Of a stretch of 1,860 nt of DNA, positions 394 through 1,860 are shown piece after piece (position 1 is the stretch's first letter; each line of letters starts with the position of its first letter). The notes beneath the pieces are model-generated. The model had not been told where the DNA came from. It did no database searches and was given only the letters and a program-made list of their open reading frames with translations. Source of the stretch: Naegleria gruberi (taxonomy: Eukaryota); assembly GCA_000004985.1 (NCBI GenBank), contig GG739313.1. One strand, given 5' to 3'. A program made the translations under genes and the position numbers.

Positions 394-401
394 AACAAAC
401 T
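394..401. repeat. Target-site duplication copy 1 (AACAAACT)
   Basis: Identical 8-mer in direct orientation abutting the outer end of each TIR. Confidence 0.6.
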
Positions 402-417
402 CAGGGGGGCGGAAAGT
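402..417. repeat. Left terminal inverted repeat CAGGGGGGCGGAAAGT
   Basis: Exact reverse complement of 1327-1342. It contains a G6 run, which is rare in this AT-rich window. Confidence 0.75.
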
Positions 418-1255
418 GAAGAAAAATGGTGAGAAAGGAAAAAATAAACAAAAAACAACCAGTTTTTAATTTTCTGAACAACCAAAACCAAAGCCATGTT
501 TCAGACCTTGTAAAGTAACTTTCTGATTATTAGCCAGAAATGCTTTAAGAATCAACTTTTTTCGTAACTCCACAAACAGTACAGCAAAAGGGTTTTGCCA
601 TTTTTTGGAAGTTTTTGGTAAATAAAAATGCATAATAATTGTGATTGAGATTAAACATTATTATCTGCCACATCGAAGAAACAATTCCAACCTTTGATAT
701 TTGGAATATATCATTACTACATGAATTATCGCGATTTGACAGAAGGTATTTTTTATTTTTTGCTTCTATCTTAAGAACGAAAGTTAGCCATCACACTCAT
801 TCAATTTCATACCAAAACCAAGCGTACACAGATAGTTCAAAAAATCCTCCAGCCACAACGAAGGAATCTTTTAAAGGTGTCATGTGTTCAATTATTGAAC
901 TTTATGAAATTTAAAAGTAACTGAGAGAAGCTATTTTTTTATTTCATCGTATTTATTTTTTTTAATACTTCCTAAATAGTGCATGTGTTTTTAGCTTAAA
1001 ATTTAATTCTGAAAATATGCTGTTTACGATAAATACTTCACAGAAATGAATAATTCCAAGATGAGAAATATATATATTGGTACTGAAATGTCTTCAAATT
1101 ACTAAAGTTTTGGGAAACATCATCCTCGACCCTGAGAGTATCTATGTGAATAAATTCTAGACACCAAGACGTGAATATGTGAATTAAAATCGATATTGTG
1201 AAACTTCACGTGTTTATAGAACTGTAACAGATTATTGGATGTATAGAGTTGTATA

Positions 1256-1261
1256 TTTATT
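1256..1261 (-). promoter_or_regulatory. Candidate polyadenylation signal (AATAAA on the minus strand) for the Sel1/ZZ gene, located inside the transposon
   Basis: Plus-strand TTTATT at 1256-1261 is AATAAA on the minus strand. It lies about 140 nt downstream of the TAA stop at 1401-1403. No minus-sense AATAAA exists in the 50-nt native flank between the stop and the insertion. Confidence 0.2.
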
Positions 1262-1326
1262 GAAAAAACATATATCGACTTGGAACCACTTTGACAATTC
1301 TCAACATTTTCGCTCGGCTGATACCA

Positions 1327-1342
1327 ACTTTCCGCCCCCCTG
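1327..1342. repeat. Right terminal inverted repeat ACTTTCCGCCCCCCTG
   Basis: Exact reverse complement of 402-417. Confidence 0.75.
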
Positions 1343-1350
1343 AACAAACT
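1343..1350. repeat. Target-site duplication copy 2 (AACAAACT)
   Basis: Identical 8-mer in direct orientation abutting the outer end of each TIR. Confidence 0.6.
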
Positions 1351-1400: not shown

Positions 1401-1860
1401 TTATTCAAGGAGTTTGATCAATGTTTCCAATTTTGTGTGCTTTGGTTTTTCATTTAACTGCTTTAGCAAAGGAACAAAAAGTTGTAAAGCGTGGTGTTTG
1501 GCAAATTTTGAGTTTCCACATTTGTTGCATTTAGCTCCATTCTCGTAACATCGTTGGCATAAATCAAAATCACATGATAAATTAGCACATTCATAATTAA
1601 ATCCAAAATCTTCCACAAAACATTCATTGCAACAACAGCTTGAATTTACCTTACTGAGAAATCTGTCATCGAATTGAGTACCTAATTTTCCCAAAAATTG
1701 TCTACTTTTTTCCAAATCTAGCTCACAATCATGTAATCCAAAGTAGTGCATAATTCCAAAGAGAATGGTACATGAATGATCTCCTTGATCACACGCCTCT
1801 TTAAGCCAAAACATGGCTCGATCTATATCTTGCTCAACACCTTCCCCTGAAGAAAACATC
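1401..1860 (-). CDS. C-terminal part of a Sel1-repeat / ZZ-type zinc-finger protein; the 5' end continues beyond the window edge, and the TAA stop is at 1401-1403
   Basis: Continuous 152-codon minus-strand frame running to the window edge. The translation has a Sel1-like repeat ('GEGVEQDIDRAMFWLKEACDQGDHSCTILFGIMHYFG') followed by a Cys-rich ZZ signature ('CCCNECFVEDFGFNYECANLSCDFDLCQRCYENGAKCNKC...HH'). Codon usage is non-random and nematode-like (GGA used 7 times for Gly, AGA for Arg). Confidence 0.7.
   Translation of the reverse strand, partial: MFSSGEGVEQDIDRAMFWLKEACDQGDHSCTILFGIMHYFGLHDCELDLEKSRQFLGKLGTQFDDRFLSKVNSSCCCNECFVEDFGFNYECANLSCDFDLCQRCYENGAKCNKCGNSKFAKHHALQLFVPLLKQLNEKPKHTKLETLIKLLE
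1491..1637 (-). other. ZZ-type zinc-finger domain within the CDS
   Basis: Spacing is C-x2-C-x10-C-x4-C-x4-C-x2-C-x6-C-x2-C followed by HH. It contains the ZZ hallmarks 'G-x-R/N-Y-x-C' (GFNYEC) and 'DFDLC..C', as seen in p62/SQSTM1, dystrophin and CBP ZZ domains. Confidence 0.6.
1737..1859 (-). other. Sel1-like (TPR-like) repeat unit within the CDS
   Basis: Matches the Sel1 consensus G.GV..D...A..W...AA.QG...A...LG..Y..G: 'SGEGVEQDIDRAMFWLKEACDQGDHSCTILFGIMHYFG'. Further repeats probably lie beyond the window edge. Confidence 0.55.

What the first reader, a model, noticed from the sequence alone, without database searches (positions are those of the whole stretch)
1401..1860. Unusual domain pairing: Sel1 repeat directly followed by a ZZ zinc finger
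The minus-strand CDS joins a canonical Sel1-like repeat (a protein-interaction scaffold) to a ZZ-type zinc finger carrying the GxxYxC and DFDLCxxC hallmarks, with about 35 residues between them. ZZ domains typically bind N-terminal degrons or histone tails, as in p62 and HERC2. A Sel1 plus ZZ architecture is not one I recognise as a described family. The N-terminus lies beyond the window and probably has more Sel1 repeats.
Basis: partly seen in the sequence, partly recalled or inferred. Interest (0 to 1): 0.5.

Follow-up and report, generated by a model that had tools for sequence, protein, structure and literature searches.

The report
Naegleria F-box/Sel1 protein tail with ZZ-like finger
The window holds the last 152 codons of a Naegleria gruberi gene whose full-length twin is an F-box protein with Sel1 repeats ending in a divergent ZZ-type zinc finger; this domain mix is unusual and undescribed, but it is built from ordinary parts and its function is untested.

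Summary
The minus-strand ORF 1401-1859 encodes a significant but truncated Sel1 repeat (Pfam 36.3 bits, cut-off 30.7). About 50 residues later comes a Cys-rich module with GxxYxC and DFDLCxxC.

The ZZ call is below Pfam's cut-off (11.1 vs 21.4 bits). Independent evidence supports it:
- All six non-self hits of an unbiased HMMER search are multi-ZZ proteins.
- hhalign against a ZZ profile gives 95% probability.
- The best solved relatives are the PRT1 and KCMF1 ZZ domains.

The finger is not canonical. It has a C-x4-C second knuckle, a long L3 loop carrying an extra CxxC, and no HxnH pair.

The window is an entire 1860-bp Naegleria gruberi contig. Its ORF is 152/153 identical to residues 401-553 of NAEGRDRAFT_74705, a 553-aa protein with an F-box, an LRR-like stretch, six Sel1 repeats and the ZZ-like finger. 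The annotated start Met is therefore internal, and the fragment is most likely an allelic or recently duplicated copy.

The most likely role is an SCF substrate adaptor whose Sel1/ZZ end binds a partner, possibly through a free N-terminus. This is inferred, not shown. No orthologue and no other Sel1+ZZ protein was found. Interest is modest.

The parts
1401..1859 (-). Open reading frame of 152 codons plus the TAA stop (1401-1403). It is the 3'-terminal fragment of an F-box/Sel1/ZZ-like gene, equal to NCBI XP_002668111.1 / NAEGRDRAFT_76978.
   Evidence: 100% identity to P0001; 152/153 identical to aa 401-553 of NAEGRDRAFT_74705.
1779..1859 (-). Sel1 repeat, aa 1-27. Its first helix is cut off by the contig end. 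It corresponds to repeat 6 of the full-length protein.
   Evidence: PF08238 36.3 bits, above the gathering score of 30.7, profile positions 10-36/36; solved Sel1 proteins to E=4e-19; the same stretch is aa 392-427 of P0088 and matches the full profile 1-36.
1680..1778 (-). Possible seventh, degenerate Sel1-like helical hairpin (aa 28-60), in 36-residue register with the repeat before it.
   Evidence: For: BLAST self-alignments to repeats 3-5 of P0088 reach aa 52-64 (E 4e-6 and 2e-5); PDB Sel1 alignments run to aa 56-59; the AF2 model has helices at 30-39 and 49-58 with low pLDDT. Against: no Pfam hit when scanned alone, and p is only about 0.03 against a small HMM built from the other repeats.
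1638..1679 (-). Linker, aa 61-74 (TQFDDRFLSKVNSS).
   Evidence: Low pLDDT in the AF2 model and no family match.
1467..1637 (-). Divergent ZZ-type zinc finger, aa 75-131. Predicted Zn1 ligands are C77, C80, C101 and C104. Predicted Zn2 ligands are C91 and C96 plus two of C111/C114/H122/H123. Ligand-cage positions are N78, D97 and D99. Secondary structure is beta1 88-91, beta2 99-101, helix 102-106 and beta3 128-131.
1604..1605 (-). Site of the only difference from NAEGRDRAFT_74705. One codon (Asn486 of the full-length protein) is absent between F85 and G86, in the loop between the first CxxC and GxxY.
   Evidence: EDF-GFNY against EDFNGFNY.
1404..1466 (-). C-terminal tail, aa 132-152, with a predicted short helix at 142-151. 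No family match.

Best explanation
What it is. The window is a whole 1860-bp unplaced contig of Naegleria gruberi. Its minus-strand ORF is the 3' end of a second copy of gene NAEGRDRAFT_74705. The copy is most likely the other allele (a haplotig), or else a very recent duplicate.

Architecture. The full-length protein has 553 aa:
- an F-box (aa 38-74);
- an LRR-like stretch (about aa 95-150);
- six or seven Sel1 repeats (about aa 220-460);
- a divergent ZZ-type zinc finger (aa 475-531);
- a short tail.
The 'start' Met of the annotated 152-aa protein is Met401 of the full protein.

Proposed mechanism.
1. The F-box docks on Skp1 and so on a Cullin-1/Rbx1 core. This is inferred from the domain only.
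2. The Sel1 solenoid and the ZZ-like finger form the partner-binding end. This is inferred.
3. The finger folds around two zinc ions in the cross-brace ZZ topology. This is supported by sequence and model, but no metal data exist.
4. It presents the Asn/Asp cage (N78, D97, D99) that in p300/CBP, ZZZ3, p62 and PRT1 grips the free alpha-amino group of a ligand's first residue. The residues are shown; binding is inferred.

The protein would thus be a substrate adaptor that reads a protein N-terminus or a similar short peptide and hands it to an SCF ligase.
For: Identity:
- P0001 is 100% identical to a N. gruberi predicted protein whose longest contig is 1860 bp.
- Its 90% cluster holds the 553-aa NAEGRDRAFT_74705 on a 223-kb contig.
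- The two align at 152/153 with a single one-residue gap.

Architecture of the full copy:
- F-box PF00646 scores 20.9 bits against a gathering score of 20.5.
- F-box-like gives E=2.6e-4.
- Sel1 scores 134.5 bits in 6 stretches.
- ZZ scores 11.7 bits.
- The LRR-like stretch matches internalin at E=1.9e-4.

ZZ fold: as set out in the observation check. All invariant ZZ cysteines, G86, D97 and D99 fall in conserved columns. C-x4-C second knuckles occur in accepted ZZ domains of NBR1-like proteins, for example CMHPSC in P0007, P0008, P0014 and P0028. C directly followed by D[FY]DLC occurs in P0068, P0083 and P0086.

Ligand cage:
- p62 D129, D147 and D149 are each required for Nt-Arg binding (PMC6197226).
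- H3-binding ZZ domains carry an invariable Asp plus an Asp, or an Asn in p300/CBP (PMC6138639).
- The window has N78 (in the motif C-N-E-C), D97 and D99.
- PRT1's ZZ is an N-degron reader with an unusually long L3 loop (PMC12370974). The window's loop aligns to it without gaps.
Against: - The ZZ match fails Pfam's gathering score in both copies.
- The canonical H-x(1-3)-H pair for the second zinc is missing. PRT1's first His aligns with F119, and only H122/H123 (adjacent) or the loop's C111/C114 could substitute. Zinc site 2, and with it the pocket, may be altered.
- The p62 R139 equivalent is N88.
- Both AF2 models have only moderate confidence (mean pLDDT 65 and 70). They were built on alignments of ZZ domains, so the fold matches are partly circular.
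- The F-box is not in the window, it passes Pfam by only 0.4 bits, and it rests on an automated gene model I could not check at DNA level.
- No orthologue was found, so there is no conservation evidence that the architecture is under selection.
- No expression data were available.
Confidence: 0.55

Rival explanations
1. The Cys-rich module descends from a ZZ domain but has degenerated. It acts only as a structural zinc knot or C-terminal cap for the Sel1 solenoid, or as a generic protein-protein contact, and does not read N-termini.
For: It is sub-threshold in Pfam. The HxnH pair is lost and the L3 loop gained an extra CxxC. The Arg equivalent to p62 R139 is replaced by N88. PMC6138639 notes that acidic residues alone did not confer H3 binding on the TADA2A/B ZZ domains, so having the cage residues is not sufficient.
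Against: The cage positions N78, D97 and D99 are exactly the ones retained. The best solved relatives are N-degron-reading ZZ domains of E3 ligases: PRT1, KCMF1, BIG and p62.
Confidence: 0.3
2. The window encodes an independent short gene of 152 aa starting at the ATG at 1857-1859, as annotated (NAEGRDRAFT_76978). It would be a stand-alone mini Sel1-ZZ protein.
For: NCBI carries it as a complete predicted protein starting with Met.
Against: The ATG lies one base from the contig end. The Sel1 match starts at profile position 10 of 36, so the first helix is missing. In the full-length copy the same Met is residue 401, inside a complete repeat. The frame is open to the end of the contig.
Confidence: 0.05
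3. The F-box/Sel1/ZZ architecture is an artefact of gene prediction. Two neighbouring genes, F-box-LRR and Sel1-ZZ, were merged into NAEGRDRAFT_74705, so the real unit is only Sel1 repeats plus ZZ.
For: I could not obtain the scaffold DNA or any transcript. The region aa 150-215, between the LRR-like stretch and the first Sel1 repeat, has no family match.
Against: UniRef and InterPro name the single 553-aa product as F-box domain-containing. Naegleria genes are intron-poor (my own knowledge), so a single long ORF is the simplest model. F-box proteins normally carry a C-terminal repeat domain.
Confidence: 0.1

Closest known systems
PRT1 ZZ domain (Arabidopsis N-recognin; PDB 8zg8/8zg9)
   Same: It is the best solved sequence relative, E=0.005 over aa 70-127. 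It shares the cross-brace layout, the CY-E motif after the second CxxC, a long L3 loop of the same length, the Asp before Leu-Cys, and its setting inside a ubiquitin-ligase component.
   Different: PRT1 pairs its ZZ with two RING domains, not with an F-box and Sel1 repeats. PRT1 has Asp after the first Cys where the window has Asn. PRT1 has HxxxH for Zn2, while the window has F119 at the first His position and carries CxxC in the loop. PRT1's hydrophobic pocket residues were not tested here.
p300/CBP and ZZZ3 ZZ domains (histone H3 N-terminus readers)
   Same: The first knuckle, C-N-E-C, is the same as I recall for p300/CBP. The Asn + invariable Asp cage signature is described in PMC6138639. 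These domains appear among the Foldseek hits.
   Different: They have the HxH or HxxxH type of Zn2 site and a short or ordinary L3. They sit in nuclear acetyltransferase complexes. There is no evidence that the Naegleria protein is chromatin-associated.
p62/SQSTM1, KCMF1 and BIG/UBR4-associated ZZ domains (N-degron readers)
   Different: p62 D129 becomes N78, N132 becomes F81 and R139 becomes N88, so Arg-specific recognition is unlikely. The partner domains differ (PB1/UBA, RING-like, UBR4).
F-box proteins with non-WD40/non-LRR C-terminal domains (FBXO class of SCF substrate receptors)
   Same: The full-length twin has an N-terminal F-box followed by repeat domains that would hold the substrate.
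   Different: I found no F-box protein with Sel1 repeats plus a ZZ finger in any search or paper here. The F-box lies outside the window.
Sel1-like repeat (SLR) proteins such as SEL1L/Hrd3, HcpB and Legionella LpnE/EnhC
   Same: There is a significant Sel1 profile match and tandem 36-residue repeats.
   Different: Those proteins are ER-membrane, secreted or bacterial, and have neither an F-box nor a zinc finger.

Membership tests
Sel1 repeat (Pfam PF08238, SLR solenoid) | Profile match above the curated gathering score. | tested here: met
   36.3 bits against 30.7, E=7.2e-9, aa 1-27; 134.5 bits in 6 stretches in the full-length copy.
Sel1 repeat (Pfam PF08238, SLR solenoid) | Tandem array of helix-turn-helix units of about 36 residues. 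| tested here: inconclusive
   Inside the window there is only 0.75 of a repeat plus one weak, degenerate unit. The array is clear only in the 99%-identical full-length protein. The AF2 helices have low confidence.
ZZ-type zinc finger (Pfam PF00569) | Profile match above the curated gathering score. | tested here: not met
   11.1, 11.7 and 14.4 bits against 21.4.
ZZ-type zinc finger (Pfam PF00569) | Homology to accepted ZZ domains by more sensitive or unbiased searches. | tested here: met
   all six significant hits out of 1.84e9 proteins are Pfam-positive ZZ proteins; hhalign 95%, E=3.5e-8. PRT1 ZZ E=0.005.
ZZ-type zinc finger (Pfam PF00569) | Zn1 site: CxxC ... CxxC, four Cys, with D-[YF]-D-L-C before the second pair and G-x-[RK]-[YF]-x-C before the Zn2 knuckle. 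| tested here: met
   C77/C80 and C101/C104, DFDLC and GFNYEC all fall in invariant or conserved columns. N88 replaces the usual Arg.
ZZ-type zinc finger (Pfam PF00569) | Zn2 site: CxxC plus H-x(1-3)-H (PMC12370974). | tested here: not met
   The knuckle is C91-x4-C96; this spacing is also seen in NBR1-like ZZ domains. There is no HxnH. F119 sits at the first His position, H123 at the last, H122 is adjacent, and C111-x2-C114 lies in the loop. Which residues bind zinc cannot be told from sequence.
ZZ-type zinc finger (Pfam PF00569) | ZZ fold: three short strands plus one helix in a cross-brace. | tested here: met
ZZ-type zinc finger (Pfam PF00569) | Binds two zinc ions. | not testable with these tools
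   This needs metal analysis of the recombinant domain.
N-terminus-reading ZZ domains (p62, PRT1, KCMF1, ZZZ3, p300) | Invariable Asp two residues before the third Cys pair, plus Asp or Asn after the first Cys. | tested here: met
   D99 and N78, and also D97 (the p62 D147 equivalent). The rule is taken from PMC6138639, PMC6197226 and PMC12370974.
N-terminus-reading ZZ domains (p62, PRT1, KCMF1, ZZZ3, p300) | Binding that depends on the ligand's free alpha-amino group. | not testable with these tools
   This needs peptide binding assays.
F-box protein / SCF substrate receptor | F-box motif of about 40 residues near the N-terminus. | tested here: inconclusive
   It is absent from the window because the contig ends at residue 401. 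In the 99%-identical full-length copy, PF00646 scores 20.9 bits against 20.5 (a bare pass) and PF12937 scores 21.2 against 24.3 (a fail). The motif LPDELIKLILNFIP is typical.
F-box protein / SCF substrate receptor | Binds Skp1 and assembles with Cullin-1. | not testable with these tools
   This needs co-purification or a two-hybrid assay.

The most novel reading that the evidence does not exclude
The gene encodes an SCF-type N-recognin: an F-box adaptor that uses a ZZ finger with an unusual second zinc site, buttressed by a Sel1 solenoid, to read protein N-termini. This would add the cullin-RING/F-box class to the ligase classes (RING, HECT, UBR4-KCMF1, autophagy receptor) already known to use ZZ domains for N-degron recognition. 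It would be a lineage-specific invention in Naegleria.
Probability: 0.15. Interest if true: 0.55.

Novelty: new member of a known kind. Interest (0 to 1): 0.27.

Why it matters
If the inferred function holds, this would be an F-box adaptor that recognises substrates through a ZZ finger. The ZZ/N-degron theme is so far known from RING, HECT, UBR4-KCMF1 and autophagy-receptor contexts, so this would extend it to SCF ligases in a deep-branching eukaryote.

As it stands, the result is mainly an annotation correction:
- NAEGRDRAFT_76978 is a truncated duplicate or allele of NAEGRDRAFT_74705.
- Both carry an unannotated, divergent ZZ-type finger.
- The architecture appears lineage-specific.

Domain shuffling of common interaction modules onto F-boxes is frequent in protists, so a specialist would find this mildly interesting rather than surprising.

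Tried and rejected
- Orthologue searches found nothing with the same tail or architecture.
  - The word-indexed search with the 152-aa ORF found only itself.
  - Full HMMER with aa 44-152 found only multi-ZZ proteins.
  - The ZZ-profile search gave 80 ZZ proteins, none with Sel1.
  - The search with the 553-aa protein gave 35 generic Sel1 proteins, none with an F-box or ZZ. It did not even list the query's own cluster, so it is a weak negative.
  - The viral contig scan found nothing.
  - The metagenome scan found 4 loci matching only the Sel1 region at 35-37%.
- No DNA for either copy is on record in the contig index, so allele versus paralogue could not be settled at DNA level.
- NCBIfam gave nothing, and Rfam gave nothing in the window.
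- Other ORFs in the window have no family match.
- The literature holds no paper on a Sel1+ZZ or F-box+Sel1+ZZ architecture or on this Naegleria gene. The p300 ZZ paper (PMC6482957) is not held.
- My first shuffle control for the inverted repeat was flawed because it counted zero-loop palindromes. I replaced it.

Full report
**What is in the sequence**

The window is AT-rich, 22-36% G+C. Its one substantial reading frame runs on the minus strand from 1859 to a TAA stop at 1401-1403, giving 152 codons. The frame is still open one base from the end of the window. Other ORFs of 55-89 aa have no family match, and Rfam finds nothing.

**Origin**

The translation is 100% identical to a 'predicted protein' of Naegleria gruberi (XP_002668111.1, NAEGRDRAFT_76978, UniProt D2W6D5). 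The longest contig carrying it is 1860 bp, so the window is that entire contig.

**The Sel1 part**

Pfam Sel1 (PF08238) matches aa 1-27 at 36.3 bits, above the gathering score of 30.7, with E=7.2e-9. Only profile positions 10-36 are matched, so the repeat's first helix lies beyond the contig end. Solved Sel1-repeat proteins match down to E=4e-19.

Residues 28-60 lie in 36-residue register with the preceding repeat:
- They align to bona fide repeats of the full-length paralogue (E=4e-6 and 2e-5).
- They are predicted as two helices at low confidence.
- Alone they give no Pfam hit.
- They score only p of about 0.03 against a small HMM of the other repeats.

I treat this stretch as a possible degenerate capping hairpin.

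**The ZZ part**

Pfam ZZ (PF00569) scores only 11.1 bits (E=0.36; 14.4 bits for the segment alone) against a gathering score of 21.4.

Four other lines support homology:
1. An index-free phmmer search of aa 44-152 against 1.84 billion representative proteins returned only six non-self hits at E<=1e-3 (4e-9 to 4e-4). Every one is a multi-ZZ protein by Pfam, with ZZ E-values of 5e-13 to 1e-63; one is NBR1-like.
2. hhalign of the ORF against a profile of 21 accepted ZZ domains gives 95% probability, E=3.5e-8, over aa 76-109.
3. Against PDB sequences the best non-Sel1 matches are ZZ domains only: PRT1 (E=0.005, aa 70-127), then KCMF1, p62, Ada2, BIG and the S. pombe Nbr1 ZZ.
4. AlphaFold models give the finger core pLDDT 75-90 with the strand-strand-helix-strand order of a ZZ domain.
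   - Foldseek ranks p62, KCMF1, Ada2, PRT1, p300, HERC2, BIG and CBP ZZ domains among the top hits, mixed with RSC and UTX/UTY chains. All are at E>=0.08, as expected for a 45-residue domain.
   - The models were computed on alignments of ZZ domains, so line 4 is not independent of lines 1-3.

**How the finger departs from the canon**

According to PMC12370974, Zn1 is held by four Cys and Zn2 by CxxC plus HxH, HxxH or HxxxH.
- Zn1 is intact here: C77, C80, C101, C104.
- The Zn2 knuckle is C91-x4-C96. This spacing also occurs in accepted NBR1-like ZZ domains (CMHPSC in P0007, P0008, P0014, P0028). The direct C-D[FY]DLC junction occurs in P0068, P0083 and P0086.
- The His pair is missing. In the gap-free alignment to PRT1, the first His falls on F119 and the last on H123. 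H122 is adjacent, and the long L3 loop carries an extra C111-x2-C114.
- Which two residues complete Zn2 cannot be decided from sequence. This explains the low Pfam score.

**Ligand-cage residues**

- In p62, D129, D147 and D149 are each required for binding N-terminal Arg (PMC6197226).
- PRT1 uses two conserved Asp for the alpha-NH3+ group (PMC12370974).
- All H3-binding ZZ domains have an invariable Asp plus an Asp, or an Asn in p300/CBP (PMC6138639).
- The window has N78 after the first Cys, D97 and D99 in the invariant columns.
- The equivalents of p62 N132 and R139 are F81 and N88, so any specificity would differ from p62.
- PMC6138639 also warns that cage residues alone are not sufficient for binding.

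**The missing N-terminus**

The 90%-identity cluster of the ORF contains one more protein: NAEGRDRAFT_74705 (XP_002670242.1, D2W025), 553 aa, on a 223,047-bp contig. UniRef names it 'F-box domain-containing protein'. The window's product aligns to its residues 401-553 with 152/153 identities. The only difference is a one-residue gap: Asn486 is absent between F85 and G86, at window 1604|1605.

Pfam on the full protein gives:
- F-box PF00646 at 20.9 bits against a cut-off of 20.5, aa 38-74;
- F-box-like at E=2.6e-4, below its cut-off;
- six Sel1 stretches, 134.5 bits;
- the same sub-threshold ZZ, 11.7 bits;
- a weak LRR signal.

The segment aa 52-152 matches internalin LRRs at E=1.9e-4.

Three consequences follow:
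- The annotated Met1 is an internal Met.
- The real architecture is F-box + LRR-like + Sel1 x6-7 + ZZ-like.

I could not retrieve DNA for either copy. Whether the window is the second allele or a recent duplicate therefore remains an inference from the 99% protein identity and the orphan-contig status.

**Mechanism**

These steps are inferred from established domain functions, not shown here.
1. The F-box would dock the protein on Skp1 and Cullin-1.
2. The Sel1 solenoid and the ZZ-like finger would form the substrate end.
3. The finger may grip a free N-terminus through N78, D97 and D99.

ZZ domains already serve this role in several ubiquitin or autophagy receptors, including PRT1, KCMF1-UBR4, BIG, HERC2 and p62. 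An F-box partner would be a new combination. The main rival is that the finger is a degenerate structural knot without peptide reading.

**Rarity**

None of the 80 ZZ-profile hits carries Sel1. None of the 35 hits to the full-length protein carries an F-box or ZZ. The viral scan and the metagenome scan gave nothing relevant. No paper mentions the pairing. These searches sample the databases and do not enumerate them, and one search missed even the query's own cluster. Rarity is therefore likely but unproven. No orthologue means no evidence of purifying selection on the architecture.

**Verdict**

The gene is an already deposited but uncharacterised, apparently lineage-specific F-box protein with a divergent ZZ-type finger. 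It is a new member of known kinds built by domain shuffling, of modest interest unless N-terminus reading by an SCF adaptor is demonstrated.

**Seen in passing**

About 50 bp downstream of the stop codon lies a 941-bp AT-rich element (402-1342). It has perfect 16-bp terminal inverted repeats, CAGGGGGGCGGAAAGT, and an identical 8-bp flanking duplication, AACAAACT, at 394-401 and 1343-1350. None of 300 dinucleotide shuffles reaches a 17-nt inverted repeat. It has no ORF with a family match. This is the signature of a non-autonomous hAT-like DNA transposon. If the insertion is heterozygous, that could explain why this haplotype assembled as a separate small contig; this last point is speculation.

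Noticed in passing
window 394-1350 (TSD 394-401 and 1343-1350; TIRs 402-417 and 1327-1342): This is a 941-bp AT-rich element. It is bounded by perfect 16-bp GC-rich terminal inverted repeats (CAGGGGGGCGGAAAGT) and flanked by an identical 8-bp direct repeat (AACAAACT). The 5'-CAGGG end fits the hAT YARNG rule, and an 8-bp target-site duplication is typical of hAT (both from my own knowledge). No coding capacity was found, so it looks like a non-autonomous hAT-like transposon or MITE. It is inserted about 50 bp downstream of the Sel1/ZZ gene's stop codon. A 17-nt inverted repeat was reached by 0 of 300 dinucleotide shuffles. There was no match in the phage collection. Copy number in the Naegleria genome could not be checked.
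   Followed up: partly
window 1857-1859 and the contig end at 1860: The annotated start codon of NAEGRDRAFT_76978 sits one base from the contig end and corresponds to internal Met401 of NAEGRDRAFT_74705. The deposited 152-aa 'complete' protein is therefore a truncated gene model.
   Followed up: yes
window 1604|1605 (between codons F85 and G86): A single 3-bp in-frame indel relative to NAEGRDRAFT_74705 (its Asn486 is missing here) is the only protein-level difference. It lies in the loop between the first CxxC and the GxxY strand of the ZZ-like finger, where ZZ domains tolerate 10-11 residues.
   Followed up: partly
window 1524-1535 (codons C111-N-K-C114) and 1491-1496 (H122-H123): There is an extra CxxC in the long L3 loop and an adjacent His-His where ZZ domains normally have HxnH. 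Together with the spare C75 and C76 ahead of the first knuckle, this could mean an altered second zinc site or even a third one. No tool here could resolve it.
   Followed up: no
full-length twin P0088, aa 85-170 (not in the window): Between the F-box and the Sel1 array is an LRR-like stretch matching internalin (E=1.9e-4; Pfam LRR_4 E=0.12). The protein may therefore combine two repeat types.
   Followed up: partly
(database search, not sequence): The word-indexed search with the 553-aa protein did not return the query's own cluster representative (P0001), although earlier searches did. Negative results from that search should be treated with caution.
   Followed up: no
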